Positions 6,071 through 36,466 are shown, counted from the first letter of the stretch. The stretch: 64,000 bases of DNA from an uncultured bacterium (GCA_938038445.1 CALHRZ010000010.1:16757-80756); one strand, 5' to 3'. The notes: generated by a model from the sequence alone, not told the origin. Translations and numbers: made by a program.

Positions 6071-6867
6071 GGGAGGGGCGAACGTTCCTTGGGGTTTTGG
6101 AACACGGCCAGTGCGGCTCCCAGGGCGACGACGGTCTGGGGCGAAGGTGGGACCCAGATGCGGACGCCGAGATTTTCCTCCAGTGTATCGAGCAACGCGC
6201 GGTTGAGGGCGCCGCCGCCGACGAAGGCGAGAATTTCGCGGGGACCGATTCGGCGCACCATCGCGGCGATGCGATCTGCGATGGCCTGATGGGCGGCGGC
6301 TGCGATATCGGCCTTTGCGACATTCCGGGCGAGGAGTGAGACGACTTCGCTTTCCGCGAAGACGGCGCACGTGGAGTTCATATGGATGGGGACGGTGGAG
6401 GAGCGAGCGGCCTGAATAAATTCCGGCATTGAAAGATCGAGCTTTCGTGCCAGCATTTCAAGGAAACGACCTGTTCCAGCCGCGCATTTGTCGTTCATGG
6501 CAAAATCCTGCACGTCGCCCGTGTCGGCCAGAGCAATGACTTTGGTATCCTGGCCGCCGAGGTCAAGGACGGTTCGGATGGGGCCATGCGGGGAACCGAG
6601 AAATCGGGCACCGAGGGCCGAGGCCCGGATTTCGGTAATGATGAGATCACCCATTCCGGCTAGACGCCGACCGTACCCTGTGACGGCGACGGCCCCGACG
6701 GCTTGAGGGGAGAGATTGGCCTGGGCCAATACTCCGTCCAGCACCTGGCGGGCGCTATCGGCGGGCAGGATGGCGTTTGAGAGGACGACGCCGGCGATCA
6801 GCCGGGTGCCGTCGAAGAGAACGGCTTTGCTGGTGGTGGATCCGATATCGAGCCCGGCGGCGATCAT
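6067..6867 (-). CDS. BadF/BadG/BcrA/BcrD-type ATPase (CoA-substrate-specific enzyme activase, HgdC-like)
   Basis: The N-terminus MIAAGLDIGSTTSKAVLFDG is the acetate/sugar-kinase-fold signature of HgdC/activator ATPases. The later VGGGALN motif also fits. The start overlaps the upstream stop (ATGA at 6864-6867). Confidence 0.7.
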   Translation of the reverse strand: MIAAGLDIGSTTSKAVLFDGTRLIAGVVLSNAILPADSARQVLDGVLAQANLSPQAVGAVAVTGYGRRLAGMGDLIITEIRASALGARFLGSPHGPIRTVLDLGGQDTKVIALADTGDVQDFAMNDKCAAGTGRFLEMLARKLDLSMPEFIQAARSSTVPIHMNSTCAVFAESEVVSLLARNVAKADIAAAAHQAIADRIAAMVRRIGPREILAFVGGGALNRALLDTLEENLGVRIWVPPSPQTVVALGAALAVFQNPKERSPLP

Positions 6868-8114: not shown

Positions 8115-9616
8115 GGCCACTGGCTCCGAGCGATGGGGCGGCCGGCAAACTCGGCGCGCAAGCAATCGTTTTGGGGGCACCATTCCACGCATTTGAGACA
8201 GTAGAGGCAGGCGGGTTGGGCGACATCTTCTGTTTTCATTTCGGAAGCGACGGTTGAGATATCCATGGGGCAGACTTCGCGACAAATTCCGCAGCGATTG
8301 CAGCGACGAGGTTGTTTGCGGAGGGAGAAGAGTCCCCCTCGGTTGAAGGGGGTAGCGAGCAATCCCATCGGGCAAAAACGGCAGAAAAAGCGGCGCGAGG
8401 CAGCGAAGGAAACGAGGAAAAAAAGCGTGAGAAGAGGGGCGACGATGAGGAAGAAGCCTCCGAGCCATTCCCGTCCTGGCAGGGGAGGGTATGCGGTGAG
8501 TCCGCGGGTTGCGACGGGGCATAGTTGTTGGGCTGGGCAGATTTTGCAGAAGGGGTAGAGAGGAATTTTACATCCGAGGAAGCGGCCATCGGCGTCCAAT
8601 CGTGGGATTGCGGCGGCGAGAAGGAGGCTGAAAGAACCGAAGGAGAGGCCGGCGCCCCAGGCGATCCTTTGACTTCGGGGTGAGGGTTTCCAATGGGGGA
8701 GTCGGAGAAGACGGCGGACGAGGTCGAATCCATCGCCCAAGGTTGCAAGGGGGCAAATCCATCCACACCACCAGCGGCCGGCAAGGAAGAGGGCGATGGT
8801 CACCGAGGCGATTGCTCCCAGAATGATGGCGAGGAGGCCGGTTTCATTCCGTGCGTTGCGGACGATCGTCCGAAAATCGAATTGGAAGAGACGTTGGAGA
8901 AGTTCCATGGGGCAGCCTTGGACGTAGCCGCCGTCTGCGCTGAATCGGCAAGGCGCGGACGGGATGTACGTGAGGCGATCGGGATCGTGAAGCGCGGGAA
9001 TCGTTTCAGAGAAGGCCACGACGTCGTTGCGTAATTGAGCCCGGCGGGCCATGGCGTGTTGCCAATCCGAAGGAGAACGGCGGAAAAGAAAGCCTCCGCC
9101 GAGGAGAAGAATTAGTGCGGTCAAACGGACAGAGGTGCGGAAGGCACGGAGGGGAACGAAGGGGTGGAGGAGAATGAGAATGGAGACGAGGCCGAGGAAC
9201 AGAGGGATAGGAGCGGAAGGCGCTCCCACGAAGCCTCCATCGGGAGGACGGCTCTGTTGCTGCGTTCCGACGTGGAGAATGAAACCGAGGAGAAGGAAGC
9301 AGGGCCAAACGAGAAAAATGCGGTATGCCGGGCGACCGTGCAGAAGAAGCGCAGGCAGGATGAGAAGAAAGAAGGCAGGGACGAGAGGATGCTGAAGGCG
9401 ATAAAGCCAGCGGGACCACCCGGGGTGAGTTTGGGCGAACCCATGGACCATAACGGACAAGAGGAAAACCCAGACAGGCACCATCCATCGAAGAAGGGGT
9501 GAGGAAGAACGGGAGGACGCCTTGAGCGCAAGGGAAGTTGCGAGGGCTACCAGGAGAGATTCCAGGGGGCGGAACCAAAATGCACCGCTTTGAAGAATGG
9601 CATTCAGCGGGTCCAT
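8111..9616 (-). CDS. Membrane polyferredoxin, NapH/MauN-like 4Fe-4S binding protein (second copy)
   Basis: The polytopic membrane protein carries a CGWICPLATLGD motif. Its C-terminus has ferredoxin motifs (CNRCGICREVCP ... CLYCLKCVEWCP). Confidence 0.6.
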   Translation of the reverse strand: MDPLNAILQSGAFWFRPLESLLVALATSLALKASSRSSSPLLRWMVPVWVFLLSVMVHGFAQTHPGWSRWLYRLQHPLVPAFFLLILPALLLHGRPAYRIFLVWPCFLLLGFILHVGTQQQSRPPDGGFVGAPSAPIPLFLGLVSILILLHPFVPLRAFRTSVRLTALILLLGGGFLFRRSPSDWQHAMARRAQLRNDVVAFSETIPALHDPDRLTYIPSAPCRFSADGGYVQGCPMELLQRLFQFDFRTIVRNARNETGLLAIILGAIASVTIALFLAGRWWCGWICPLATLGDGFDLVRRLLRLPHWKPSPRSQRIAWGAGLSFGSFSLLLAAAIPRLDADGRFLGCKIPLYPFCKICPAQQLCPVATRGLTAYPPLPGREWLGGFFLIVAPLLTLFFLVSFAASRRFFCRFCPMGLLATPFNRGGLFSLRKQPRRCNRCGICREVCPMDISTVASEMKTEDVAQPACLYCLKCVEWCPQNDCLRAEFAGRPIARSQWP

Positions 9617-10242
9617 ATCTTATTGATCGCAAGGAGTGCAAACACAACGGCCATGGGGAGGAGATACCACCAGAAATAATAATCGGCGCGGCTGTCCGCG
9701 ATGATGGAAATGGTGCCGAGCCGGGTTTCCTCGCCCGATGGTTCCGAACGGGTCAATGAGAAACGGCGGACTTTTTGAGCGGAAACCGGCGAGAAGGACA
9801 ATCGAGCAACGGTCGGATTGGAGCGTTGAAGAGCGTTCCCCCATTCAATGCGGAGGGGTCCCGCGTCGAGAGATTCCGGTGGCAATTCAAGGGCGAACGT
9901 CAGGCCGACGATTTCCCCGAATTCGCGGGTGAGGGTATTGGTTTCAATTACGAGGGGCAGAGGGCGGCCGAGTCCATCCGTTGCACCGATCCGATCGAGG
10001 GATCCGACAGATAGATGGGGAGGTTGGAAGCGGCCGTACACGATCCAACCCTGAGGGTTATGAGGAACGAACGAGGGGGTCTCCGACAGAGGGATTTCTT
10101 CGGGAGGTTCGGAGGGGGGCGGGTCAAGTTCCAAGAGGTGGATCGAGATTGACGTAGCCGATGTGTCGGCGGGACAAGATGGGCAGGAAAAGAAGAAAAG
10201 GAACGGGAGAGCGCACAGGAGGGCAAGACGGGGCATGGGCAT
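9604..10242 (-). CDS. Hypothetical secreted/membrane-anchored protein
   Basis: It has an N-terminal signal-like segment (MPMPRLALLCALPFLFFFSCPSCPA) and a C-terminal TM anchor (YYFWWYLLPMAVVFALLAINKIW). It overlaps the polyferredoxin start by 13 nt, so it is co-transcribed. Confidence 0.35.
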   Translation of the reverse strand: MPMPRLALLCALPFLFFFSCPSCPADTSATSISIHLLELDPPPSEPPEEIPLSETPSFVPHNPQGWIVYGRFQPPHLSVGSLDRIGATDGLGRPLPLVIETNTLTREFGEIVGLTFALELPPESLDAGPLRIEWGNALQRSNPTVARLSFSPVSAQKVRRFSLTRSEPSGEETRLGTISIIADSRADYYFWWYLLPMAVVFALLAINKIWTR

Positions 10243-10248
10243 ACGGCG

Positions 10249-11187
10249 TCAATCCGGAAGAAGCAGGCGGGCGAACACCAGCGGGTTTTGGTAGGAGGCT
10301 CCGTTTCCGAGCCAGTAGGAGAGGTGTGCGTCGCGTTGACGGGCCACATTGAGGAGGAAGGACTTTTGGATACCGAGGGGCTGAAGGGGAAGGGTCAGCT
10401 CGATGCCGTCGGGTCCTTTGACGGCCCGGGCTCCGGCGGGTGCGTTCTGAAGATCGGCGTTGGCCAGGTTAAGTAGGATCGAAGTCGGGGGAAGGTCCAT
10501 GTCGGAGCTAAGCAAGAGGGTCAGGACATCCGATTCCGCACTGGCGGTTTCGGGTGTGGGGATCATGGCGTAGAGCGTTTCGGCGTCTGCGGCGAGGCGG
10601 AGTCGGGTGCCGCAATTGGAGGGTTGCACCTCCACGTAGCGGCGGCTTTTGGAATCTTGGGAAAAGCTGGTGCAGAGCCAGGCATCGGCCCATTCGTCGC
10701 GGGTGATGGAGCCGTCAATTCGAAGCGAAGGGACTTTGCGGGGAAGCGTGGAGACGTTTATGGCGCGATCGAGTTCGACGGTTTTGAATTCCATGCGAGG
10801 TTGGCGGCCGTTGAAGAGGCGTAAAGCGATTTCGTAGCGGCCATCAGGCACTCCGGGTTTTCGTTTGAGGGTGACCGTGAAATACTCTTTTTTACCGCCG
10901 TGGCGGGTGGTTTGGAGTTGGGGGAAGGACCGCCATTCGGGAGAGGGAGTGACGGTGCTTTCGAAGTCGGGGCTAATCACTTCGAGCCGGATATCGGCGA
11001 TCGCCCGGTCCATGGTATTGAGGAGATGAACTCGGAAGGAAGCTTCCTGATGGATCCGGAGTTGTCCGTCGCGGATATCGACCTTGACGGCCAGATTGTC
11101 GCGGGCTTGTTCGAAAACATCGTTGCAGAGGTGGGACTGAACGTTCGCGAGGGGGAGGAAGAGTACGAGAAGGACGATTCGCTTCAT
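10249..11187 (-). CDS. Hypothetical secreted protein, possible CBM9/DOMON-like C-terminal domain
   Basis: The start was trimmed to ATG 11187 (MKRIVLLVLFLPLANV, signal peptide) with an AAGGA RBS. The motif IDGSITRDEWADAW resembles the CBM9/DOMON-like fold. There is a 7-nt gap to the next gene. Confidence 0.35.
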   Translation of the reverse strand: MKRIVLLVLFLPLANVQSHLCNDVFEQARDNLAVKVDIRDGQLRIHQEASFRVHLLNTMDRAIADIRLEVISPDFESTVTPSPEWRSFPQLQTTRHGGKKEYFTVTLKRKPGVPDGRYEIALRLFNGRQPRMEFKTVELDRAINVSTLPRKVPSLRIDGSITRDEWADAWLCTSFSQDSKSRRYVEVQPSNCGTRLRLAADAETLYAMIPTPETASAESDVLTLLLSSDMDLPPTSILLNLANADLQNAPAGARAVKGPDGIELTLPLQPLGIQKSFLLNVARQRDAHLSYWLGNGASYQNPLVFARLLLPD

Positions 11188-11259
11188 CGAGAGGATTCCT
11201 TGCACAGAGGGGCTTTTATTTATCAGTCTACCGAAAGAGGCGGCGGAAGTCAGGAACAA

Positions 11260-12621
11260 TTATTCATAAAACACATCCCCTTGCTCATTGAGGCGGACGT
11301 GGTAACGTCGCAGAAGATCGGGACCGGGTTCGAAGGGATCGCGGAGTCGGACGAGACGGGTATGAAGCAGGTGGTGCAATTCGGCGATTTGCTCTGGCGG
11401 GGCAGTGGGGAGGAGGTTATGGAGTTGAAAGGGGTCGTGTTGCACATCGTAGAGGAACCACGGGCCATCCGGACGTTCGGCATAGGCGTAGCGGGCGGTT
11501 CGCAAGCCACGGAATTCGAGCACGCGGGGGGGGCTCCGGCGGAGCTCGTGGAAGGGGCAGTAACAGGAGAGGAGGGCGGGTGTATTCGGTTCGTCGGGGG
11601 TGGTGCCAGTAAGGAGGGGGGCGAGGTTACGGCCTTCGGTTTGGGGCGGGATAGGGAGGGCCAAGAGACCGAGAAGGGTCGGCATGATATCCGGGGCGTC
11701 AATTGGGAACTGAACGGTACGGGGTTTGGCACCGAGTTTTTCCGTCCAGCGCAGGAGGAAGGGAACGCGGATGGACTCTTCGAAAGGCCACTGTTTTCTT
11801 AAGAGCCCCTGGGCGCCGAGCATATCGCCGTGATCGGAGGTAAAGACGACGAGGGTGTGATCAGCGATCCCTTGTTCCTCCAGGGTATCGAGAAGGCGGC
11901 CGAAGCATGCATCGAGCGCCGCGCCGTGGGCGTAGTAGCCCGCGAGGTCGTTGCGGGCTATTTCGGCCGTTTCCAGAGGCACGTTGGGGGAGAGTTGGAT
12001 TTTTTCGGGAGAAAAAAGCGATTGATATTGTTCGGGGGCGGTGTGGTAGGGGTTATGAGGGGGACCCCAGGAAAGAAAGAGGGCAAAAGGGCGGGGAGCA
12101 TGCGCGCGGGAGGCGATTTCGGCGCAGGCCAGGTCGGTTTGAGCCTTGGCGTCATATCCTTTCCAGAGAAGGGGTTCAGGGGCATCGGCATAGTACAGGG
12201 AATGGTTGTAGTCGTGGGTGCATTCGAAGCCGCGCCAGATCCGGAAGCCGAGGCGATCTTCGGGAGGGACGTAACGGGTTCTTCCGCCGCCGTGGAGATG
12301 CCATTTGCCGATCCAAAGCGTATCGTAATCCGCGGCGTTGAGATGGTCGGCCAGCGAGCCGCCGGGCACATGTCGGAGAGGCTGATCGTTGACGATGATC
12401 CCGTGGGCAAGGGGGTATCGGCCGGTGAGGAGAGAGGCGCGGTATGGGCTGCAGACCGGACAACCGCTCACCGCGTTGGGAAAAGCGATTGCTTGTGCGG
12501 CGAAGGCATCGGTGCGGGGCGTTTTCGCATTTGGATCTCCGGCGTATCCGAAGGCTTGGGCGCGCCATTGGTCGGAGAAGACGAAGAGGATATGCGGGCG
12601 ACGAAATGCAACATGTGGCAT
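11260..12621 (-). CDS. Sulfatase (arylsulfatase family)
   Basis: HILFVFSDQW ... CPVCSPYRASLLTGRYP carries the formylglycine C-x-P-x-R motif. The start was taken at ATG 12621. No obvious signal peptide is present. Confidence 0.7.
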   Translation of the reverse strand: MPHVAFRRPHILFVFSDQWRAQAFGYAGDPNAKTPRTDAFAAQAIAFPNAVSGCPVCSPYRASLLTGRYPLAHGIIVNDQPLRHVPGGSLADHLNAADYDTLWIGKWHLHGGGRTRYVPPEDRLGFRIWRGFECTHDYNHSLYYADAPEPLLWKGYDAKAQTDLACAEIASRAHAPRPFALFLSWGPPHNPYHTAPEQYQSLFSPEKIQLSPNVPLETAEIARNDLAGYYAHGAALDACFGRLLDTLEEQGIADHTLVVFTSDHGDMLGAQGLLRKQWPFEESIRVPFLLRWTEKLGAKPRTVQFPIDAPDIMPTLLGLLALPIPPQTEGRNLAPLLTGTTPDEPNTPALLSCYCPFHELRRSPPRVLEFRGLRTARYAYAERPDGPWFLYDVQHDPFQLHNLLPTAPPEQIAELHHLLHTRLVRLRDPFEPGPDLLRRYHVRLNEQGDVFYE

Positions 12622-12849
12622 GAACGTATTCTGCCAAAAAGGGGGCAGAGAACGGAAGAAAAACGTCGGAGTAAGACTTGCGCTGGCGTCTAACACCTCC
12701 GAGGGGATTTCTTTGAAGGGCGGGAGCAGATCAGTTGGAGTGTTGAGGGCTGGAGGGGTTGAGGGGGCGGCGTGAGGGAAGAGCGGATGCCAGCGGCGAT
12801 TGCGATGGAAGGTGGCCAAAGCGAGGAAGTCCTCATCGGCTTCGAGGCT

Positions 12850-13932: not shown

Positions 13933-15033
13933 ATGACGGGTGAACTTCTCGGCATAGGGATGAACGCGTTGACGCGGTTGACCAACGAAAAGACTCGGTC
14001 CGTTACAGCAGAAAATGTGTATGGCGAAAAGGGAAGAGGGGGGATGGCGGAAGTATCTCAAACGCCACAAGAAGAGGTCGTCAAGATTGGGCAGCATTGG
14101 GACGGTCCCAATGCATGCGCGCGAGATCTCGGGCGGAAATGGAAGGTTCGGCCTTGTATCACTCTGCCGGCGGGAAAAGTCACTCCCTTGATGGATGTTG
14201 CGGGACCTGGCCGAATTCAGCACATTTGGATCACAGTGGATGCCAAATTCTATCGCGACCTTATTTTGCGAATCTATTGGGACGGGGAAGCCGATCCGAG
14301 CGTCGAGACGCCCTTGGGGGATTTTTTCTGCAACGGATGGAAGACGCGGGTGAACATTATGGCCATTCCGATCAACGCGAATCCTTCGGGCGGGTTCAAT
14401 TGCTATTTTCCCATGCCGTTTCGAACGCATGCGCGGATAACGATAGAGAACAGAAGTCCTAGCTCTGTTGGGGGATTCTTCTACGCGGTGAATTATGCCC
14501 AAGGTTCGGTGGGGCACGAGGAGGTCTACTTCCACGCCCAATTTCGAAGGACCAATCCATTACCCTACAAACAGGACTACGTGATTCTGGACGGCGTGAG
14601 AGGCCAGGGCCATTATGTCGGCACCTATCTGGCGTGGCAGCAAAATAACAGCGGCTGGTGGGGGGAAGGGGAGTTTAAGGTGTTTTTGGATGGCGATGAG
14701 GAGTTTCCCACGATATGTGGAACGGGGACGGAAGATTATTTCGGGGGCGCCTGGTGCTTTGGGCAAAATTACACGGCGCCGTTTCTTGGGTATCCTTTGG
14801 GATCCTGCGACGGTCGGCCCGGTAATCGGCACGGGATGTACCGGTTCCATATCTTGGATCCGATCCGTTTTGAGCAGGACATCCGGGTGACCATGCAGGC
14901 CATCGGATGGCGGAGCGAAGGGAGGTATCTTCCTTTGCAGGACGATATCGCGTCGGTCGCTTATTGGTACCAAACCGAGCCCCACGTTCCCTTTCCGCCT
15001 TTGGGCGATCGTGACGCCCTGGAAGTCATTTAG
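13933..15033 (+). CDS. DUF2961 domain protein (glycoside hydrolase family 172-like)
   Basis: The ATG at 13933 is preceded by a GGGAG RBS. Motifs such as ICGTGTEDYFGGAW and GWWGEGE are typical of DUF2961/GH172. Confidence 0.55.
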   Translation: MTGELLGIGMNALTRLTNEKTRSVTAENVYGEKGRGGMAEVSQTPQEEVVKIGQHWDGPNACARDLGRKWKVRPCITLPAGKVTPLMDVAGPGRIQHIWITVDAKFYRDLILRIYWDGEADPSVETPLGDFFCNGWKTRVNIMAIPINANPSGGFNCYFPMPFRTHARITIENRSPSSVGGFFYAVNYAQGSVGHEEVYFHAQFRRTNPLPYKQDYVILDGVRGQGHYVGTYLAWQQNNSGWWGEGEFKVFLDGDEEFPTICGTGTEDYFGGAWCFGQNYTAPFLGYPLGSCDGRPGNRHGMYRFHILDPIRFEQDIRVTMQAIGWRSEGRYLPLQDDIASVAYWYQTEPHVPFPPLGDRDALEVI

Positions 15034-15219
15034 GGCTTCCGGTCCGTTGGCCCCTTCCTCCGACGCAGCGTGAGAGGGGTGACGGAATTCTTTTTGTTTC
15101 CGTCAATGGGATATGGGGGAGATTCCAGCGGGGAAGGAGCATGGCGCTCCCGTAAAAGGTTTCCGGCGCGGCGGCTTTTCAAAGGGCCAGGCCGGGCGCC
15201 CTGCGGACGCTGGACAGAC

Positions 15220-15248
15220 TTGACGGAATAATCCAGCATACTTATACT
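15220..15248 (+). promoter_or_regulatory. Candidate sigma70-type promoter of the nikR-nik operon (TTGACG-N17-TATACT)
   Basis: TTGACG lies at 15220-15225 and TATACT at 15243-15248 with a 17-nt spacer. The predicted TSS is ~4 nt before the nikR ATG, implying a near-leaderless transcript. An AT-rich ATACTTATACTTA repeat overlaps the -10 box. Confidence 0.35.
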
Positions 15249-15258
15249 TACGAGCGAT

Positions 15259-15768
15259 ATGAATAATAAAGAAAAAAGTAATACGAGTTCTTCCGGGCTT
15301 TGCCGCTTTACCATCTGTATGCCCGAAGAACTGGCCAGACTTTTTGACGCTCTACGGCAGCGGAAGGGATTCGAAAACCGTTCTCAAGCGTTTGCCGAAC
15401 TCGTCCGCCAATGGGTGGTAGACGAGCGGGCACGGACGGGAAAAGGAACGATCGCCGGTTCGATTACGTTGGTCTACGATCATCACAAACCCGGGCTCCA
15501 GTCCCGCTTGACGGCGCTCCAGCACCGCTATGCGGGTGTCATCCTGAGCGTTTTGCACGCCCATCTGGATTCCTGTAACTGCCTGGAAATTATTGCCTTG
15601 CGCGGTGCCGCTCAACCGATTTATCGCCTGGCCGATGCCGTGGGGGCTGTCAAGGGGATCAAACACGCCCGTCTTTCGGTCACCACCGCCGGGCGGGAGT
15701 TTCGACACGGTTTTGGGCATGTATCGCGCCACTCTAATTTGCATGAACAGGACCCCCCCAAACATTGA
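15259..15768 (+). CDS. nikR: Nickel-responsive transcriptional regulator NikR (ribbon-helix-helix + ACT-like metal-binding domain)
   Basis: The RHH region (RFTICMPEELARLFDALRQRKGFENRSQAFAELV) and the high-affinity Ni-site motif (LHAHLDSCNCLEI, compare HxHLDHxNCLE) are present. It sits directly upstream of a CbiMQO-type transporter. Confidence 0.8.
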   Translation: MNNKEKSNTSSSGLCRFTICMPEELARLFDALRQRKGFENRSQAFAELVRQWVVDERARTGKGTIAGSITLVYDHHKPGLQSRLTALQHRYAGVILSVLHAHLDSCNCLEIIALRGAAQPIYRLADAVGAVKGIKHARLSVTTAGREFRHGFGHVSRHSNLHEQDPPKH

Positions 15769-15780
15769 AGGGAGAAATGC

Positions 15781-16560
15781 ATGAACCGTCACATCCTGGT
15801 TGTTGCCGTGGGGCTATTGCTTCCGCTGGCTCTTCGCGCCCATCACGCATTGGAGTATATCGAAATGGAAAGTTATTTCACCCCTCGCCGCGGGGGGGCG
15901 CTCTTTCATGTTCATTACGACTACTATGTCGAGGATGCCGACAATCCCGATGCCGACCACTGGGAATTTACGCCGGGGTTTTCCTACGGTCTCACCGATT
16001 GTCTCATGTTCGATGTGCACACCCATTTTGCGAAGTTTGGCCGGGAACATGTCGTGGAGGCACGGCGCGAGGAATACGGCGAGAGCGGTCCTTCGCCGTT
16101 TTTGGAAGCCGTGGCCTTTTCCCTTCAGTATCGTTTGCCGGATCAATGGCCGATCCAGGCGGGGCTCGCTGGGAAGCTTGAGGTCCCGTTTCGCAGGGCC
16201 CGCCGTCTCCTTGGAAGCGAAGATCATGTGTTCGGCGGCACGTTGATCTTGAATCGAGAATTCGGATCGCACGGCGCGGTCACCCTCAACGTGAACTATG
16301 AGAATGAGGGGGGCGAAGAAGATTGGAGCTGGGCGTTGGGGGTGAGATCGCCGCTTTCCATGGATCCCCATGGGATTGCCGGAGGCGTCGAAATCTCAGG
16401 CGACTTTGAAGGCAATTCATGGGCCGTACTGCCTGGCGTCTATCTTCCGATCCGGGAGGGAACGGTGTTCAAAACGGGGCTTCAGTTGGGACGCCAGAGG
16501 GCGGAAGAGGAATGGGTTGGTACGCTTCGGCTACACACCTCGTTGATGTACAGCTTTTAA
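15781..16560 (+). CDS. Putative outer-membrane beta-barrel/channel protein of the nickel uptake operon
   Basis: It has a signal peptide (MNRHILVVAVGLLLPLALRA), a His-rich mature N-terminus (HHALEYIEMESYF...HVHYDYYVED) and a C-terminal aromatic residue (...LMYSF), as in MetA-pathway-like OM channels. Confidence 0.4.
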   Translation: MNRHILVVAVGLLLPLALRAHHALEYIEMESYFTPRRGGALFHVHYDYYVEDADNPDADHWEFTPGFSYGLTDCLMFDVHTHFAKFGREHVVEARREEYGESGPSPFLEAVAFSLQYRLPDQWPIQAGLAGKLEVPFRRARRLLGSEDHVFGGTLILNREFGSHGAVTLNVNYENEGGEEDWSWALGVRSPLSMDPHGIAGGVEISGDFEGNSWAVLPGVYLPIREGTVFKTGLQLGRQRAEEEWVGTLRLHTSLMYSF

Positions 16561-16564
16561 GGGG

Positions 16565-17242
16565 GTGCATGCAATGCCGCGAATGCTGATCCCGTTGGTG
16601 TTGACCCTTTCGGCATGCGGAGGATCGCGTGTTCTCGCGCACGAAACGTGGCTGTGGGTATCTTCTTATCGGCCGTCTCCAGAAGAACGAGTTACGGTTT
16701 GCGCGGGGAACGGCCATGCCTTTCCCAAGAGCGATATGCGCATCGCTCCGGACTGGCTTCGTCGCCTTCATGTTGTCGAGAACGGGATCCCGCGCGCCGA
16801 TCTATTGCTTCAACCGGACGGGAATGAATATACGGCGGCCATGACGGTGGAACGCGGAGGGGTGTTTCTCTTCGTGTTAGAGCTTCAGCGGGCTTCCATG
16901 TCGGAGCCGAGGGCATGGGTTCGTGCGATCATGGTTTCAGGCGAACGGGATGAGCCAGACTGGTATCGAACGGGGGATGGTTTGGAAATCGTTCCGGAGC
17001 GCGCGGTGTCCCGGCTCACGGAGGGAGAATCCCTTCCCGTGGCGGCATATTGGAAAGGCGAACGGATTGAAAACCGGCTGACGATCCGACTGCCGAAAAG
17101 CGGGCGGGAACTCGTACTGAGCACGACCCCAGAGCGCCCAGCGGTTCTGACGCACCTTGAATCGGGCGTCTATCTGCTGACGGTGTCCTATCTCGGGCGA
17201 ACGGCGACTCTGACCTTTTCGATCGGTGGAGGCCGGCCATGA
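16565..17242 (+). CDS. DUF4198 periplasmic protein (NikK/CbiK-like additional component of Ni/Co ECF-type transporter)
   Basis: It has a lipoprotein-like signal (LTLSACGG) and a mature N-terminus HETWLW typical of DUF4198. It is positioned immediately before nikL/M/Q/O-like genes. Confidence 0.55.
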   Translation: MHAMPRMLIPLVLTLSACGGSRVLAHETWLWVSSYRPSPEERVTVCAGNGHAFPKSDMRIAPDWLRRLHVVENGIPRADLLLQPDGNEYTAAMTVERGGVFLFVLELQRASMSEPRAWVRAIMVSGERDEPDWYRTGDGLEIVPERAVSRLTEGESLPVAAYWKGERIENRLTIRLPKSGRELVLSTTPERPAVLTHLESGVYLLTVSYLGRTATLTFSIGGGRP

Positions 17243-17682
17243 GGTTCGGTGTCTGGCGGAATGGAGTTGTATTGTTCTTTACCGGCGCGGTGTCCTTCGC
17301 TCTGGGCCATGGGATGCATGCAGAGCGAACCGATGCTGCAGGGTTTGTGTTTCGGTATGATGACGGTTCACCGGTTGCGTTTGCCGATATTCGTGTATGG
17401 GGGCCGGGGGATGGGGAGACCCCGGGTCTTCAGGGGACTACGGACGTCCGCGGTGCGTTTGCGTTTTCCGTTTCCACCGTGGGGAGTTGGCGCATTCGGG
17501 TTGATGACGGGCTTGGCCATGCAACGGAGACAACGTTTACGGCGGGGACCGAAGGGGGTCAGTGCGCGAGGGTAGGGCGACCGGATCGGTGGGCACGATG
17601 GCTGGCGGGGATTGGGGTTATCTTTGGATTGGCAGGGGTCTATGTCCTGGTGTCGCGGCCGGTTGGCCAACCGCGGCATTAG
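17239..17682 (+). CDS. Small membrane-anchored protein, NikL-like (transthyretin/carboxypeptidase-regulatory-like fold) accessory component
   Basis: It overlaps the upstream gene by ATGA. It has N- and C-terminal TM segments flanking a beta-rich domain. This position is conserved in nik(K)(L)MQO clusters. Confidence 0.4.
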   Translation: MRFGVWRNGVVLFFTGAVSFALGHGMHAERTDAAGFVFRYDDGSPVAFADIRVWGPGDGETPGLQGTTDVRGAFAFSVSTVGSWRIRVDDGLGHATETTFTAGTEGGQCARVGRPDRWARWLAGIGVIFGLAGVYVLVSRPVGQPRH

Positions 17683-17703
17683 ACCGACAACAGGAGGCAG
17701 GGC

Positions 17704-18321
17704 GTGCATATTGCAGAAGGGGTGTTGAGTCCGGCAGTGGCTGCGAGCGGGTGGCTGGCAAGCGCGGCGGGGATTTACTGGGGATTGCGTTGTATGGAGC
17801 CCGAAGCGATTCCCCGAACGGCGATGATGACGGCGGCTTTTTTTACGGCCTCCCTGATTCAAGTGCCGATCGGCCCTGGCCATACCCACCTCGTTCTGAG
17901 TGGCCTGGCGGGAATCCTGCTGGGGCCGGCCACATTTCCGTCTCTGGCGGTCGCTTTGTTTCTCCAGGCGTTACTGTTTCAATTCGGCGGGCTGAGCTCC
18001 CTGGGAGTCAATCTCCTCATTATGGCGGTTCCGGCTGTCGTATTCGGATTCCTTTTTCAGGGGGGAATGCGTCGGCGGAGCGGGGGACGCGGTCGGCTGT
18101 GGGGGTTTGCGTTTATGGCAGGAATGGGTTCGGTCTGGCTTTCCGCCTTGATGCAAGCCGGCGCGCTCCTGGCGTCTGACCCCACGTTTCGGGTTGCGGG
18201 CATGACGTTGGCGGCGATTCATGCTGTATCGGGTCCAGTGGAAGGACTCATTACGGCATTCACCGTCACGTTTTTGGAGGAACTTCGGCCGGGTCTGGCG
18301 AAACGCGGAGGGATCCGGTGA
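17704..18321 (+). CDS. nikM: CbiM/NikM substrate-capture component of Ni/Co ECF transporter
   Basis: The GTG start gives the N-terminus MHIAEGVLSP, the hallmark CbiM/NikM N-terminus (N-terminal Met-His metal ligands). Confidence 0.8.
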   Translation: MHIAEGVLSPAVAASGWLASAAGIYWGLRCMEPEAIPRTAMMTAAFFTASLIQVPIGPGHTHLVLSGLAGILLGPATFPSLAVALFLQALLFQFGGLSSLGVNLLIMAVPAVVFGFLFQGGMRRRSGGRGRLWGFAFMAGMGSVWLSALMQAGALLASDPTFRVAGMTLAAIHAVSGPVEGLITAFTVTFLEELRPGLAKRGGIR

Positions 18322-19070
18322 GTTGTCTGACTTGGATTCCGGGGCGCTCCTGGATTCACCGCGTGACGCCGGAAGCACGTCTTTTTTCGGCGCTTGTGCT
18401 GATGGTCGCGCTGACCATTGCGGAGGGTCCTTGGGCGGCGATGGGCGGAGGAGTTCTGGCGGTGGTTCTCGTTGGGCTGGCTCGGTTGCCGCTGCGGCTG
18501 TTGGGGCATGTGTTGATTCGGCTGAACCTTGTATTGGGGTTTATGGCGTTACTCCTTCTTCCGGCACTGTGCGGTAGTTCCCTCGTCGAGTCTCCCGCGG
18601 TACGACCTTCTGGGAACGGGTTTTCGCTTTTGGGGCGGATGGTTTGGAAAGGCAATGCGATGGTGATGCTCTATTTGGCCCTTTTGGCTACGATGGACCC
18701 CATGGCGTTGGGGCTGGCGATGCGCGCTCTCCGTCTTCCTTCCCGGCTCGCTCTCCTGTATCTGTTGACGGTTCGGTATGTCGATCTCTTGCATCACGAG
18801 TGGGAGCGCATCCGCCGTGCGATGGGGGTTCGGGGATTCCGTGCCCGAGCGGATCGCCGTACCTTTCGCCTGTATGGCCACGCTCTGGGCCGACTGTTCC
18901 TGCGGTCTCTCGAACGGGCGGAACGGATTGTTTGGGCTATGAAATGCCGGGGTTTCAAGGGGCATTATCCTTTGTCTTCCCGGGGACGGTGGACGACGGA
19001 CTCGATCTTGTTCGCGGTGGGGAGTTGTCTTGCGGCTGTTTTAATATTTGCCTTAGCATGGATCCGATGA
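18318..19070 (+). CDS. nikQ: CbiQ/NikQ transmembrane (T) component
   Basis: The GTG start overlaps the nikM stop (GTGA). The hydrophobic CbiQ-like sequence includes RAMGVRGF. Confidence 0.7.
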   Translation: MSCLTWIPGRSWIHRVTPEARLFSALVLMVALTIAEGPWAAMGGGVLAVVLVGLARLPLRLLGHVLIRLNLVLGFMALLLLPALCGSSLVESPAVRPSGNGFSLLGRMVWKGNAMVMLYLALLATMDPMALGLAMRALRLPSRLALLYLLTVRYVDLLHHEWERIRRAMGVRGFRARADRRTFRLYGHALGRLFLRSLERAERIVWAMKCRGFKGHYPLSSRGRWTTDSILFAVGSCLAAVLIFALAWIR

Positions 19071-19723
19071 ACGCATCTTTCCTTCGTTTTTGGAACTTGT
19101 CTTATGCGTACGAAGAGGGGCGAGCGGTGCTGCGGGAGGTTTCCGGTCGGATCGAACGCGGCGAACGGATTGCGCTGATCGGTCCGAACGGAGCGGGAAA
19201 AAGTACGCTGTTGCTTCTCCTCATGGGGTTGTTGAAGTCTCCGACTGGCGGATTGGAGATATTGGGGCGACGGTGTCGGTTGGAACAGGATTTTGATGAG
19301 GTGCGGGGTCGGATCGGTCTTCTGTTCCAGGACAGCGACGATCAATTGTTCAACCCGACTGTCTGGGACGAGATGATGTTTGGTCCGCTCAATTTGGGGT
19401 GGTCTTTTTCGCGGGCCGAGGCGAAGGCGAAGGAAACGTTGGTGTTGTTTGGAATTGAAAACCAGGCGTCTCGGTTCACGCATCGGCTTTCAGCCGGGGA
19501 GAAACGTCTGGTGGCGCTTGCCTCTCTATGGGTAATGGAACCGGAGGCGTTGTTGCTGGATGAGCCGACGGCCGGTTTGGACGACAGTGCCCGCCAACGG
19601 GTGAAGGCGATTGTGGCGTCTTTTCCGGGTAGCCTGGTCGTTGCGTCACACGATCGGGAATTTTTGGAGGGTGTGACATCACGGCGTTGGAATCTCGTGG
19701 CTGGACATTTGGAAATTGAGTGA
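19055..19723 (+). CDS. nikO: CbiO/NikO ATP-binding component
   Basis: The start was trimmed to ATG 19055 (MDPMNASFLRF...). Walker A GPNGAGKST, LSAGEKRLVALA and LLLDEPTAGLD are present. Confidence 0.75.
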   Translation, partial: SMDPMNASFLRFWNLSYAYEEGRAVLREVSGRIERGERIALIGPNGAGKSTLLLLLMGLLKSPTGGLEILGRRCRLEQDFDEVRGRIGLLFQDSDDQLFNPTVWDEMMFGPLNLGWSFSRAEAKAKETLVLFGIENQASRFTHRLSAGEKRLVALASLWVMEPEALLLDEPTAGLDDSARQRVKAIVASFPGSLVVASHDREFLEGVTSRRWNLVAGHLEIE

Positions 19724-19778
19724 CGCGGCTGGTCGCTTCTGATATCCTTTTCCGCTTTCCAGATCGCGGAAGAGCGGA

Positions 19779-21305
19779 ATGGGAGCGGATCGAATGCGCG
19801 AACCCAGATTGGATTTGCTTGTACTGGCGGATCTTCACTATGCGTTGCCGAATCGGCCGGAAGCTGCGGCGGAACCTCTTCGAAAGATGGCGTGGGGGCG
19901 TTTACTTTTTCGCAAGGTGTTGCGCCGCGTTCGACACATGGGGCGATGGCCGGATGCTCTGGTTTTGCTGGGCGATCTGGTAGAAGATGGAGGAGCGGCG
20001 GATGCGGAATCCCTTCTCAAGGGATTGGCCGCGGAAGCGGAAGAAGCGGGACTTTTCGTCCTGGCGGTTGCGGGCAATCATGATCCAACGGACGATTCGG
20101 TTGCTCGAGTTTTCGACTCTCCGACCGGCTTTCGAGAATTTGGAGGCTATGGATTTCTTCTGATCCGCGACGAGGTGGGGCCGGGGGATTTTGCCGCGCG
20201 CCCCCCCGGCGATCTCGTCTTGCCCGTCCAGGCGGCGCGTGCTCATCCGGATCTTCCCCTGGTTGCGGTTCAGCACAATCCGATCTTCCCTCCCATTGAA
20301 AGTTCCTATCCCTTTTTGCCGACGAATGCGGAAGCGATTGCCGAATGTTATGAGGAGGCGGGGGTAATTCTTTCGCTCAGCGGGCATTATCACTGCGGAA
20401 ATGGGCCGATTCAGCGGGGGCCGACTCTGTACCGCACCACGCCTGCATTATGCGAATCGCCTTTTCGATTCGACTATGTGCGGCTGCGCGGTCGGCGGGT
20501 CGAGGTGGAGACTCATGCGCTCCGTCTGGAGGTGCCAGGACTCACCGACGTGCACTGTCATACCGAACTTGCGTACTGTGCCACGACGGTTCGGGCCGAA
20601 GAGAACGTGGCGATTTCCCGTGCCATGGGTGTTTCCCAGATCTGTTTGACCGAGCATGCCTTTCAGCTTTACATGCCGGAGGAGGAGGCGTGGAGTTTTC
20701 GTTGGCAGACGGACAGGCCGATGGCGGAGCGTTGTTTGGCGGGGCCGACTCGCATGGAGGCGTATCGGGCGTTAGCCGGCGTTTGGCGGGGTGACGCGAG
20801 CGTTCGAATCGGATTGGAAGTGGACTGGCGGGAAGGGGAAGGCTGGCTCCTGCGGCCGGGCGATGCGGACGGTTGGGATTTGTTGGTGGGAGGCGTGCAT
20901 TTGTTACCGGGCTATACTCGCGAGACGGTTCGGAAGGCGAAGCGGGCGGAGTTGGAGCGGCTTTTTATACGGCAAGTCGAAGATTTGCTCTCGAAGGGGA
21001 TTTCGGTTTTGGCCCATCCGTTTCGCATTTTCATCCGCTGGGGGTTGGAAGAACCCACGGCACTTCATGACCGACTGGTCGAAATGCTGAAGGCGGCGGA
21101 CACGGCTGCGGAAATCAATTTTCACGATCATCCCACGAGCGATCGGTTTTATCGCGAATGCCTGGTTCAGGGGGTGCGGTTGGCATTGGGCACAGATTCC
21201 CATGATCTGTCGGAGGTCGGCGAACTGTTTCCTCATTTGGAGGTTCTGAAACGGATTGGAGTGGACCCAACCACTGAGACAGACCGGCTGTTTCGGCTTT
21301 CCTGA
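19779..21305 (+). CDS. Fusion protein: calcineurin-like metallophosphoesterase domain + C-terminal PHP (polymerase/histidinol-phosphatase) domain
   Basis: The N-terminus has LADLHY ... GDLVEDG ... AGNHD metallophosphoesterase motifs. The C-terminus has HCHTELAYC ... TEHAF ... PHP-like motifs. An alternative start lies at 19794 (MREPRLD). Confidence 0.55.
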   Translation: MGADRMREPRLDLLVLADLHYALPNRPEAAAEPLRKMAWGRLLFRKVLRRVRHMGRWPDALVLLGDLVEDGGAADAESLLKGLAAEAEEAGLFVLAVAGNHDPTDDSVARVFDSPTGFREFGGYGFLLIRDEVGPGDFAARPPGDLVLPVQAARAHPDLPLVAVQHNPIFPPIESSYPFLPTNAEAIAECYEEAGVILSLSGHYHCGNGPIQRGPTLYRTTPALCESPFRFDYVRLRGRRVEVETHALRLEVPGLTDVHCHTELAYCATTVRAEENVAISRAMGVSQICLTEHAFQLYMPEEEAWSFRWQTDRPMAERCLAGPTRMEAYRALAGVWRGDASVRIGLEVDWREGEGWLLRPGDADGWDLLVGGVHLLPGYTRETVRKAKRAELERLFIRQVEDLLSKGISVLAHPFRIFIRWGLEEPTALHDRLVEMLKAADTAAEINFHDHPTSDRFYRECLVQGVRLALGTDSHDLSEVGELFPHLEVLKRIGVDPTTETDRLFRLS

Positions 21306-25176: not shown

Positions 25177-25253
25177 TGGCGTACCTGGCAGGAGTCGAAC
25201 CTGCAACCCTCAGATCCGAAGTCTGATGCTCTGTCCAATTGAGCTACAGGTAC
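25177..25253 (-). tRNA. tRNA-Arg (anticodon TCG)
   Basis: The 77-nt cloverleaf (minus strand) is GTACCTG TA GCTC AATTGGACA GAGC A TCAGA CTTCGGA TCTGA GGGTT GCAGG TTCGACT CCTGC CAGGTAC G CCA. A20 in the D-loop is an Arg identity element. The CCA end is encoded. Confidence 0.75.
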
Positions 25254-25276
25254 AGGGAAGGGTGAGGTCAAGGTGC

Positions 25277-25353
25277 TGGCGTACCTGGCAGGAGTCGAAC
25301 CTGCAACCCTCAGATCCGTAGTCTGATGCTCTGTCCAATTGAGCTACAGGTAC
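25277..25353 (-). tRNA. tRNA-Arg (anticodon ACG)
   Basis: It is identical to the neighbouring tRNA except for position 34 (anticodon loop CTACGGA). It lies 23 nt upstream (in transcription order) of the TCG copy. Confidence 0.75.
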
Positions 25354-36376: not shown

Positions 36377-36466
36377 CTTATCGCGGGGTAATCCAACCTT
36401 TTTCGTGTTTTGTCCAGGTTTGGATTGAGAAGGACGAGGGGTTTTGCTAAAAAACAGATCTTAGGG

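What the first reader, a model, noticed from the sequence alone, without database searches (positions are those of the whole stretch)
15220..19723. Complete NikR-controlled nickel uptake module with an outer-membrane component
nikR is followed without gaps by an OM-like protein, a DUF4198 (NikK-like) protein, a NikL-like protein, CbiM/NikM (MHIAEG N-terminus), CbiQ and CbiO. Overlapping stops and starts (ATGA at 17239, GTGA at 18318, 16-nt overlap at 19055) indicate one transcript. This is a seven-gene, envelope-spanning Ni acquisition system under an autoregulated repressor.
Basis: partly seen in the sequence, partly recalled or inferred. Interest (0 to 1): 0.5.

Follow-up and report, generated by a model that had tools for sequence, protein, structure and literature searches.

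The report
Nickel uptake operon with new outer-membrane barrel
This is a real seven-gene nickel-import operon of a known type (NikR regulator plus NikK/L/M/Q/O transporter). Its second gene encodes a previously undescribed, histidine-lined outer-membrane barrel that travels with nickel-uptake genes in many bacterial phyla and may be a dedicated nickel gate in the outer membrane.

Summary
Seven tightly packed + strand genes occupy 15259-19723: nikR, a 259-aa unknown gene ("OMx"), nikK (DUF4198), nikL, nikM (MHIAEG), nikQ and nikO. Gaps are at most 21 nt, and there are three stop/start overlaps.

NikR keeps all four high-affinity Ni ligands. NikM keeps Met1-His2 and the His67 equivalent. The window has no B12 riboswitch. 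The NikR + NikKLMQO part is therefore an ordinary member of a known nickel ECF system.

OMx is the interesting gene.
- It has no Pfam, NCBIfam or PDB sequence match.
- It models with high confidence (pLDDT 90-96) as a 12-stranded outer-membrane beta-barrel, closest in fold to FapF and COG4313 channels.
- It has a signal peptide, a predicted mature His-His N-terminus, an invariant C-terminal Phe, and a conserved polar strand face rich in His/Asp/Glu.

In 53 related loci from at least 10 phyla, OMx is nearly always followed by nikK and usually by nikLMQO. Canonical NikR boxes lie upstream, including where only OMx+nikK occur.

In the window itself the NikR box is degenerate, so autoregulation is inferred rather than shown. 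No nickel enzyme lies in the window.

Most likely OMx is a TonB-independent, nickel-specific outer-membrane channel that feeds NikK.

The parts
15220..15248 (+). Sigma-70-like promoter candidate, TTGACG-17 nt-TATACT. The -10 hexamer ends 10 nt before the nikR ATG and no Shine-Dalgarno sequence follows, so nikR probably has a very short leader or none.
   Evidence: the only + strand match in 14900-19900, 10/12. The count is not above shuffles; the support is its position. Searches show the sequence and the absence of an RBS.
15257..15284 (.). Degenerate NikR-box candidate, ATATGAA-N14-GTAATAC. The right half-site is perfect and the left half has 3 mismatches. It overlaps the nikR start codon.
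   Evidence: It sits at the position, relative to the NikR ribbon-helix-helix (RHH) strand, where relatives L005 and L002 carry GTGTTAC/GTGCTAC-N14-GTAACAC. Seven sites of this quality with N13/14 spacing occur in the 64-kb window, so chance within a 60-nt target is about 0.007. This is weak evidence on its own.
15259..15768 (+). nikR, 169 aa. RHH DNA-binding strand R16-F-T18-I-C20; Ni ligands H89, H100, H102 and C108 (equivalent to E. coli H76, H87, H89, C95); His-rich C-terminal tail.
   Evidence: The shorter start at 15319 used by a public gene caller would delete the RHH beta-strand.
15781..16560 (+). OMx, 259 aa: a new family of 12-stranded outer-membrane beta-barrel. Signal peptide of 20 residues, predicted mature N-terminus HHALEYIEMESY, lumen-facing His/Asp/Glu, C-terminal ...LMYSF.
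16574..17242 (+). nikK, a DUF4198 periplasmic metal-binding protein. Alternative GTG start at 16565. Predicted cleavage is VLA|HETW, giving an N-terminal His. G-H at mature positions 25-26 and E116 are invariant.
   Evidence: The function of the N-terminal His in a DUF4198 protein is from PMC12537917.
17239..17682 (+). nikL-like, 147 aa. Signal/anchor peptide, predicted mature N-terminus HGMH, Ig-like (CarboxypepD_reg-like) domain, C-terminal transmembrane helix.
   Evidence: NF058648 NikL 2.8e-10, below cutoff; |HG conserved in about 45 loci.
17704..18321 (+). nikM (CbiM family), the S component of the ECF transporter. GTG start, N-terminus MHIAEG. H62 aligns with His67 of the nickel-binding NikM2.
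18318..19070 (+). nikQ (CbiQ), the T component.
19067..19723 (+). nikO (CbiO), the ATPase. Walker A GPNGAGKS, signature LSAGE, Walker B LLLDEP. Alternative ATG at 19058.

Best explanation
One operon, probably transcribed from a promoter at about 15220-15248, encodes the nickel sensor/repressor NikR and a complete envelope-spanning nickel importer. The inner-membrane part is a group-I ECF transporter of the NikK/L/M/Q/O type. NikM binds Ni(II) with its Met1-His2 N-terminus and His62. NikQ and NikO couple this to ATP hydrolysis. NikK (DUF4198) and NikL are periplasm-facing accessory proteins that capture Ni(II) with their processed N-terminal histidines.

The second gene, OMx, is a 12-stranded outer-membrane beta-barrel of a family not described before. 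I propose that it is a TonB-independent, nickel-selective channel. Ni(II) would enter a lumen lined by invariant His, Asp and Glu residues and be bound by the barrel's own mature N-terminal His-His segment together with the H80-x-H82 motif. The N-terminal segment would be inserted in the barrel as in COG4313 channels. Ni(II) would then pass to the nanomolar-affinity NikK, which acts as a periplasmic sink, and onward to NikL/NikM.

Shown here: gene content, domain identities, conserved ligands, the predicted barrel fold, the conserved OMx-nikK linkage, and NikR boxes in relatives.

Inferred: channel function, Ni selectivity, insertion of the N-terminus into the lumen, hand-over to NikK, and repression by NikR in this particular organism.
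For: Genes and domains.

NikR and NikM ligands: NikR has all four E. coli Ni ligands. NikM has Met-His and the His67 equivalent and matches only the Ni-type NikM2 among solved structures. No cobalamin riboswitch is present.

OMx fold and conservation:
- pLDDT 90.3, and 95.8 without the signal peptide. Residues 11-20 of the mature N-terminal segment have mean pLDDT 95.
- COG4313 has an N-terminal segment that occludes the lumen (PMC4493636).
- Strand alternation places H43, H45, D47, H60, E62, D78, H80, H82, E134, N170, E204 and Y221 on the conserved polar face.
- H21, H22, H80, H82, E134, N170, E204 and Y221 are invariant even in subfamilies only 22-30% identical.
- The C-terminal Phe is invariant in the close family.

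Linkage:
- 29 of 36 loci with enough downstream DNA carry nikL+nikM+nikO after OMx.
- nikK follows OMx in 38 of 49 loci by tblastn, and a divergent nikK fills the gap in 8 more.
- nikR is adjacent in 24 of 45 loci.

NikR boxes:
- Boxes with at most 1 mismatch lie upstream of nikR in 12 loci and directly upstream of OMx in 5 loci without an adjacent nikR. These include the OMx+nikK-only loci L024 and L037.
- That is 17 of the 22 such sites in 604 kb.
- A 25%-identical barrel next to cbiM+PDGLE has a perfect box.

N-terminal His: a DUF4198 N-terminal His binds Ni with Kd 18 nM (PMC12537917). Predicted N-terminal His residues in NikK and NikL are conserved across loci.
Against: No experiment exists on any member of the OMx family.

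Model coordinates could not be inspected. The lumen location of the His cluster rests on strand periodicity, and the inserted N-terminus rests on pLDDT and analogy.

The window's own NikR box is degenerate: 3 mismatches, overlapping the start codon.

The closest structural relatives carry hydrophobic molecules (COG4313) or unfolded protein (FapF), not ions.

One subgroup of the wider barrel family (N-terminus HHGKDF; Lysobacter, Nevskiaceae) has neither nickel-gene neighbours nor NikR boxes.

NCBIfam names the M component 'cobalt transporter CbiM'. The NikL HMM match is below its cutoff.

Two loci are labelled Clostridia.

Window NikK has a lipobox-like LSAC motif upstream of the conserved cleavage site.
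Confidence: 0.62

Rival explanations
1. OMx is an outer-membrane channel or receptor for a chelated form of nickel, such as Ni-(His)2 or a nickelophore, rather than for the free ion. The His/Asp/Glu residues would recognise the complex.
For: The barrel fold and the conserved polar lumen fit any small hydrophilic solute. From established knowledge, several nickel importers take up chelates: E. coli NikA binds Ni-(L-His)2, and the known outer-membrane nickel routes are TonB-dependent transporters (TBDTs), which take up metal-chelate complexes (PMC11247825).
Against: No chelator-biosynthesis gene is conserved next to OMx. NikK-type DUF4198 binds bare Ni(II) directly through its N-terminal His (PMC12537917). 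An N-terminal His-His plus H-x-H is a typical direct ion-binding set.
Confidence: 0.13
2. OMx does not conduct nickel. It is an outer-membrane-anchored nickel-binding, buffering or docking protein. For example, it could hold Ni at the inner face of the outer membrane or tether NikK, while Ni crosses through general porins.
For: The periplasmic turns carry conserved His residues (H164 and the S-x-D-P-H197-G motif), and the N-terminus of a 12-stranded barrel faces the periplasm. A 12-stranded barrel occluded by its N-terminus may have a very narrow pore, as in Pput2725 (PMC4493636). The DUF4198 protein Zcp buffers zinc rather than importing it (PMC12663993).
Against: Most invariant residues sit on the lumen face in mid-barrel rather than on the periplasmic rim. 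A membrane barrel is a costly scaffold for a simple binding site.
Confidence: 0.12
3. The module imports cobalt, or both metals, rather than nickel.
For: The NCBIfam best hit is named 'cobalt transporter CbiM' (NF004905, above cutoff). Zhang et al. found a few NikK1ML1QO operons next to B12 genes or riboswitches (PMC2667541). IsDUF4198 is also stabilised by Co and Zn (PMC12537917).
Against: nikR is in the operon with a complete Ni site. The 64-kb window has no cobalamin riboswitch and no cbi/cob genes. NikR boxes lie upstream of orthologous operons. K/L accessory subunits mark the nickel branch (PMC2667541).
Confidence: 0.08
4. OMx is an outer-membrane enzyme, an LpxR- or OMPLA-like hydrolase, whose conserved His/Asp/Glu residues are catalytic. 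It would merely be co-regulated with nickel uptake.
Against: They match much less well than the channels. Strict adjacency to nikK across at least 10 phyla, and NikR boxes directly upstream, point to metal handling. An invariant mature His-His N-terminus is a metal-binding feature, not a hydrolase feature.
Confidence: 0.04

Closest known systems
NikKMLQO-type nickel ECF transporters with NikR (Rodionov et al. 2004/2006; Zhang et al. 2009: PMC545781, PMC2667541)
   Same: The subunit set K, L, M, Q, O is the same. There is no NikN or CbiN. NikR is adjacent. The GT[GA]TTAC-N13/14-GTAA[CT]AC operator appears in relatives. NikM has the MH N-terminus.
   Different: The gene order here is K-L-M-Q-O. 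An extra gene for an outer-membrane barrel sits between nikR and nikK. The papers read here mention no outer-membrane component other than TonB-dependent receptors.
COG4313 outer-membrane channel Pput2725 (PDB 4RL8) and FapF (PDB 5O65)
   Different: There is no detectable sequence relationship: 10-18% identity, and no Pfam hit even at E = 1. The substrates are hydrophobic molecules or unfolded amyloid subunits. Neither has the His-His N-terminus or the H-x-H lumen motif, and neither has a nickel-gene context.
PcoB/CopB copper outer-membrane barrel (PDB 7PGE; PMC12509749)
   Same: A small outer-membrane barrel dedicated to one transition metal, encoded in the metal's operon. Its N-terminal His-containing region is needed for function.
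TonB-dependent nickel receptors (FrpB4, FecA3, NikH and others) paired with DUF4198 or NikR
   Same: An outer-membrane component under NikR control. DUF4198 genes are often next to TonB receptor genes (PMC12537917, PMC11247825). Here the OMx barrel occupies that place next to DUF4198.
   Different: OMx has 12 strands rather than 22, no plug domain and no TonB box. Any transport must therefore be passive and driven by periplasmic binding.
DUF4198 proteins with solved structures: IsDUF4198, probably the entry deposited as 'NikK' (PDB 9GCB; entry-to-paper link inferred), and Zcp, probably 9MHI-9MHO (PMC12537917, PMC12663993)
   Same: Window NikK matches Pfam DUF4198 above threshold. It keeps the predicted N-terminal His and a second invariant His (G-H at mature positions 25-26). 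A profile of the NikK homologues reaches 9MHI at 4e-6 and 9GCB at 0.27.
   Different: The sequences are very divergent. The single sequence finds no PDB relative. The metal preference of this NikK is untested.

Membership tests
NikR (nickel-responsive ribbon-helix-helix (RHH) repressor) | N-terminal RHH domain plus C-terminal NikR_C (ACT-like) domain | tested here: met
   Pfam RHH_1 at residues 16-53 and NikR_C at 66-142 (2.3e-27). NCBIfam NF003381 136.4 bits against a cutoff of 105. The RHH domain is present only if the start is the ATG at 15259.
NikR (nickel-responsive ribbon-helix-helix (RHH) repressor) | High-affinity square-planar Ni site: His76', His87, His89, Cys95 (E. coli numbering) | tested here: met
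   The alignment to 1Q5V puts H89, H100, H102 and C108 of the window protein on these four residues.
NikR (nickel-responsive ribbon-helix-helix (RHH) repressor) | Palindromic operator at the regulated promoter | tested here: inconclusive
   The window has only ATATGAA-N14-GTAATAC at 15257-15284, with 3 mismatches. Orthologous loci have boxes with 0-1 mismatch.
Group-I ECF transporter NikKLMQO | S component of the CbiM/NikM family with an N-terminal Met-His and the His67 equivalent | tested here: met
   PF01891 4.5e-50. M1-H2 and H62 align to M1-H2 and H67 of NikM2, PDB 4M58/4M5B.
Group-I ECF transporter NikKLMQO | Dedicated T (CbiQ) and A (CbiO) components in the same operon | tested here: met
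   PF02361 6.5e-27. TIGR01166 cbiO 4.3e-47 (below its curated cutoff) and PF00005. Walker A, signature and Walker B motifs are present.
Group-I ECF transporter NikKLMQO | NikK and NikL accessory proteins in place of NikN/CbiN | tested here: met
   NikK: DUF4198 42.6 bits against a gathering score of 34. NikL: NF058648 E 2.8e-10 but 40.5 bits against a cutoff of 100, supported by position, signal peptide, C-terminal TM helix and the conserved |HG motif. No CbiN or PDGLE gene is present.
Group-I ECF transporter NikKLMQO | Nickel rather than cobalt as substrate | not testable with these tools
   Context favours Ni: NikR is present, and there is no B12 riboswitch and no cob genes. A transport assay is needed.
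DUF4198 (PF10670) periplasmic metal-binding proteins | Signal peptide followed by an N-terminal His, plus a second conserved His | tested here: met
   VLA|HETW...GNGH. H1, W4, G25-H26 and E116 (mature numbering) are invariant in 39 homologues. The cleavage site itself is predicted, not shown.
COG4313 / FapF outer-membrane channels | Sequence membership (a Pfam or profile match to the family) | tested here: not met
   No Pfam family at E <= 0.01 for OMx, and none of relevance at E <= 1 for ten distant relatives. A profile search against PDB sequences finds nothing.
COG4313 / FapF outer-membrane channels | [quoted passage not shown] | tested here: inconclusive
Outer-membrane beta-barrel proteins (BAM substrates) | Sec signal peptide, even number of amphipathic strands, C-terminal aromatic beta-signal | tested here: met
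   Signal peptide MNRHILVVAVGLLLPLALRA. 12 strands with alternating hydrophobic and polar faces. The C-terminal F is invariant in the 50-sequence alignment A1.
TonB-dependent receptors | 22-stranded barrel with plug domain and TonB box | tested here: not met
   The mature protein has 239 residues and 12 strands, and no Plug or TonB_dep_Rec Pfam hit.

The most novel reading that the evidence does not exclude
OMx founds a new family of TonB-independent, metal-selective outer-membrane channels. Its processed His-His N-terminus plugs a 12-stranded barrel and, together with a lumenal H-x-H motif, forms a Ni(II) site. Nickel would then cross the whole envelope along a relay of proteins that each present a free N-terminal histidine: OMx (HH-), NikK (HE-), NikL (HG-) and NikM (MH-).
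Probability: 0.35. Interest if true: 0.8.

Novelty: new variant of a known kind. Interest (0 to 1): 0.58.

Why it matters
How nickel crosses the outer membrane is known only for TonB-dependent receptors in a few bacteria. Elsewhere it is assumed to leak through general porins.

A small barrel family that is NikR-box controlled, fused into the nik operon, and conserved from Kiritimatiellae and Verrucomicrobiota to Acidobacteriota, WOR-3, Krumholzibacteriota and Neomarinimicrobiota would be a second, energy-independent solution.

The protein is short and should lend itself to refolding, lipid-bilayer recording and crystallography, so the question becomes directly testable.

The finding also extends the recently recognised N-terminal-histidine metal-binding theme (DUF4198, NikM) to an integral outer-membrane protein. 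It gives about 170 unannotated 'hypothetical proteins' a testable function.

The NikR/NikKLMQO core itself is ordinary.

Tried and rejected
- Pfam and NCBIfam scans of OMx and of ten distant relatives found nothing usable. A profile search of PDB sequences also found nothing.
- Single-sequence PDB searches with NikK and NikL found nothing. Only a 39-sequence NikK profile reached DUF4198 structures.
- A generic inverted-repeat search upstream of nikR gave only short repeats that look like chance. The operator was found only by comparison with related loci.
- I considered the shorter nikR start at 15319 used by a gene caller. I rejected it because it removes the RHH beta-strand (R16-T18-C20) that aligns to E. 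coli R3-T5-T7.
- I considered cobalt specificity and rejected it as the leading reading.
- The window contains no hydrogenase, urease, CODH, Ni-SOD or similar nickel enzyme.
- Literature searches found no report of a small barrel in nik operons. Rodionov 2006 could not be opened.
- The terminator scan was uninformative: fewer hits than in shuffles.

Full report
**Observation.** The region holds seven + strand ORFs in a row.
- nikR 15259-15768
- a 259-aa ORF, here called OMx, 15781-16560
- a DUF4198 gene, 16565/16574-17242
- a 147-aa ORF, 17239-17682
- a CbiM gene, 17704-18321, starting GTG and reading MHIAEG
- CbiQ, 18318-19070
- an ABC ATPase ending at 19723

Pfam and NCBIfam confirm NikR (NikR_C 2.3e-27; NF003381 above cutoff), DUF4198 (PF10670, 42.6 bits against 34), CbiM (4.5e-50), CbiQ (6.5e-27) and CbiO/ABC_tran. 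The 147-aa protein gives a weak NikL match (NF058648, 2.8e-10, below cutoff). OMx matches nothing.

The ATGA overlap at 17239 and the GTGA overlap at 18318 are exact. For nikO, the ATGs are at 19058 and 19067, not 19055. The second gives an ATGA overlap with the nikQ stop and is the start a public gene caller chose. Gaps never exceed 21 nt, and good Shine-Dalgarno sequences precede OMx, nikK (ATG 16574), nikL, nikM and nikQ. The only + strand sigma-70-like site in 14900-19900 is TTGACG-17-TATACT at 15220-15248. It ends 10 nt before the nikR ATG, which has no RBS. A single transcript, nearly leaderless at nikR, is the simplest reading. This is inferred, not shown.

**The known part.** The window NikR aligns over its whole length to P. 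horikoshii, E. coli and H. pylori NikR structures. The four ligands of the E. coli high-affinity site (H76, H87, H89, C95) correspond to H89, H100, H102 and C108. The DNA-contacting strand R-x-T-x-T corresponds to R16-F-T18-I-C20. The longer start at 15259 is therefore required.

NikM aligns from residue 1 to the nickel-binding NikM2 of Thermoanaerobacter (4M58/4M5B), with Met1-His2 and His62 (equivalent to His67) conserved. No other solved S component reached E <= 10. Rfam finds no cobalamin riboswitch in the window, only two tRNAs.

The comparative-genomics literature defines NikK and NikL as the accessory components that replace NikN in nickel ECF transporters. It treats CbiN as the cobalt marker (PMC545781, PMC2667541). 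By these criteria this is a NikKLMQO nickel system.

**The new part: OMx is an outer-membrane barrel.** A search of 5.8 billion proteins returned 173 homologues at 47-63% identity. All are unnamed or 'hypothetical', none has a Pfam domain, and they come from Kiritimatiellae, Verrucomicrobiota, Eisenbacteria, Acidobacteriota and others. A profile search of 1.84 billion cluster representatives found only 97 clusters, so the family is compact. Neither the profile against PDB sequences nor Pfam scans of distant members gave a real match.

AlphaFold2 with a 50-sequence alignment gave pLDDT 90.3 and twelve beta-strands. With the signal peptide removed and 65 sequences it gave pLDDT 95.8 and pTM 0.89. 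In that model the first ten mature residues average 78 and residues 11-20 average 95. The segment before strand 1 is therefore placed with confidence rather than left floppy.

OMx also has a typical signal peptide, alternating hydrophobic and polar strand faces, and an invariant C-terminal Phe in the close family.

**Conserved chemistry.** In the 50-sequence alignment, nine histidines are at least 96% conserved: H21, H22, H43, H45, H60, H80, H82, H164 and H197. Strand periodicity puts H43/H45/D47, H60/E62/T64, D78/H80/H82, E134, N170, E204, Y221, K231 and R250 on the conserved polar face. I take this face to be the lumen. H164 and the S-x-D-P-H197-G motif lie in turns that should face the periplasm.

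Predicted signal-peptide cleavage (ALRA|HHALEY) leaves His-His as the mature N-terminus. Across subfamilies only 22-30% identical, the invariant set shrinks to H21, H22, H80, H82, E134, N170, E204 and Y221. An N-terminal His-His, an H-x-H motif and two carboxylates make a plausible transition-metal site.

I could not open the coordinates. The geometry is therefore inferred.

**Genomic linkage.** A scan of 185,579 species genomes returned 53 loci, all MAGs. They come from PVC phyla, Elusimicrobia, Gemmatimonadota, Eisenbacteria, Krumholzibacteriota, Acidobacteriota/Aminicenantes, WOR-3, Neomarinimicrobiota, Planctomycetota, Spirochaetota and Chromatiales, plus two labelled Clostridia.

tblastn with the window proteins gave these counts.
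- nikL+nikM+nikO follow OMx in 29 of 36 loci with at least 4.2 kb downstream.
- nikK follows OMx in 38 of 49 loci.
- nikR lies directly upstream in 24 of 45 loci.

In eight loci where nikK was 'missing', the gap holds a divergent DUF4198-like ORF with the same |H[DE]xW...GH motifs. In L016, L024 and L049 the downstream neighbours were scanned and are unrelated. L037 likewise shows only OMx+nikK by tblastn. The conserved core is therefore the OMx-NikK pair.

**Regulation.** Upstream of nikR in the related loci, the box GT[GA]TTAC-N13/14-GTAA[CT]AC described for NikR (PMC545781) occurs with at most 1 mismatch in 12 loci. In loci without an adjacent nikR it lies directly upstream of OMx: 0 mismatches in L015, L019, L034 and L037, and 1 mismatch in L024. 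L024 and L037 are OMx+nikK-only loci.

These 17 sites are most of the 22 such sites found in 604 kb of locus DNA. A barrel only about 25% identical (P0154) sits between a divergent nikR and cbiM+PDGLE, a NikN-like gene. It has a perfect box 22 nt before its ATG. The family is thus tied to the NikR regulon independently of the ECF subtype.

A gammaproteobacterial subgroup (N-terminus HHGKDF; Lysobacter fragariae, Nevskiaceae) has no such context and may handle something else.

In the window itself, the best candidate is ATATGAA-N14-GTAATAC at 15257-15284. It lies at the position seen in L002 and L005 but has a decayed left half that contains the nikR ATG. Autoregulation here is plausible but unproven.

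**Mechanism proposed.** DUF4198 proteins have recently been shown to bind Ni(II) through a processed N-terminal His plus a second His (IsDUF4198, Kd 18 nM; PMC12537917). Another member, Zcp, is a periplasmic zinc-capture protein (PMC12663993).

Window NikK keeps H1, W4, G25-H26 and E116 (mature numbering), which are invariant in 39 homologues. A profile of these homologues reaches the DUF4198 structures 9MHI (4e-6) and 9GCB, which was deposited as 'NikK' (0.27). NikL homologues all show |HG after the signal peptide, and NikM begins MH. Every extracytoplasmic component, OMx included, is therefore predicted to expose an N-terminal histidine.

I propose the following path. OMx lets Ni(II) through the outer membrane passively and selectively. 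NikK acts as the high-affinity periplasmic sink. NikL/NikM receive the ion. NikQO power import. NikR shuts the operon down when nickel is sufficient.

The rivals are a chelate-specific channel, a non-conducting nickel-binding or docking barrel, cobalt specificity, and an outer-membrane hydrolase. Each is listed with its evidence.

**Comparison and novelty.** The NikR + NikKLMQO core is a new member of a well-known kind. The papers I could search or read describe outer-membrane nickel passage only through TonB-dependent receptors (PMC11247825) and list no barrel in nik operons. OMx fails sequence membership in COG4313/FapF, although it shares their architecture. I therefore rate the whole as a new variant of a known kind.

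**Context.** Flanking genes are GH172/DUF2961, a metallophosphoesterase-PHP fusion, a GH20-like protein, a sulfatase, UvrB, PolA and others. They are unrelated to nickel and are not conserved next to the operon. No nickel enzyme lies in the window. The organism is probably a member of the PVC superphylum, judging from best hits. No name could be recovered.

Noticed in passing
window 15694-15765: NikR carries a 24-residue C-terminal extension beyond the NikR_C domain, with six histidines (REFRHGFGHVSRHSNLHEQDPPKH). It could be an extra nickel-binding or buffering tail. Conservation was not examined.
   Followed up: no
window 16574-16640: Window NikK has a lipobox-like LSAC motif in its signal peptide, upstream of the conserved VLA|HETW cleavage site. 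If it were lipidated at that Cys, the family-wide N-terminal His would be lost. Homologues lack the Cys.
   Followed up: partly
L016, L024, L037, L049 (about 7950-9500 in each): The barrel and DUF4198 genes occur as a stand-alone pair with no ECF transporter nearby. L024 and L037 have canonical NikR boxes directly upstream. The pair therefore looks like an autonomous module.
   Followed up: partly
L057 5459-7699: A barrel only about 25% identical (N-terminus HHAKEY) sits between a divergent nikR and cbiM + PDGLE (NikN-like). A perfect GTATTAC-N14-GTAATAC box lies at 5952-5979. The barrel superfamily therefore also serves NikMN-type systems.
   Followed up: partly
L055 6001-6711, L056 6001-6672, L058 6001-6681: A subgroup of the barrel family with N-terminus HHGKDF (Lysobacter fragariae, Nevskiaceae and others) has no nickel genes or NikR boxes nearby. 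In L056 it follows an Fe/Mn superoxide dismutase gene. Its substrate is unknown.
   Followed up: partly
L043, L045: Two loci carrying the outer-membrane barrel are labelled 'Clostridia bacterium'. This may be a binning error or a diderm lineage. L043 and L045 also show two tandem NikL-like segments.
   Followed up: no
window 38874-49619: A giant 3581-aa ORF with PATR, Laminin_G_3, right-handed beta-helix, Calx-beta, DUF2341 and DUF1565 domains. It is probably a huge surface adhesin or autotransporter-like protein. A PATR-containing 697-aa ORF lies at 58468-60561, and a Chlamydia-PMP-repeat protein at 33495-35333.
   Followed up: partly
window 1-64000: GC skew (G over C on the + strand) is positive in every 2-kb bin (0.09-0.30), including 308-12819 where the genes are on the - strand. 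There is no skew switch, so no origin or terminus lies in the window.
   Followed up: no
window 25180-25353: Two adjacent tRNA genes on the - strand are the only Rfam matches in the window.
   Followed up: no
window 1762-9616: A - strand cluster: an ABC importer (SBP_bac_11, BPD_transp_1, ABC_tran+TOBE_2; 2823-6370) flanked by two multi-[4Fe-4S] proteins and a 2-hydroxyglutaryl-CoA-dehydratase D-like protein (6864-8522). It may be an anion (molybdate/tungstate/sulfate-type) uptake unit plus a redox unit.
   Followed up: no
window 37777-38808 and 36410-37780: An ApbE flavin transferase gene (1.2e-82) overlaps the end of a 456-aa ORF that has no Pfam match, just upstream of the giant ORF.
   Followed up: no
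PDB 9MHI-9MHO: The solved chains that best match the NikK profile are deposited under the name 'Phosphoribosylglycinamide formyltransferase'. That looks like an inherited misannotation of a DUF4198 (Zcp-like) protein.
   Followed up: no
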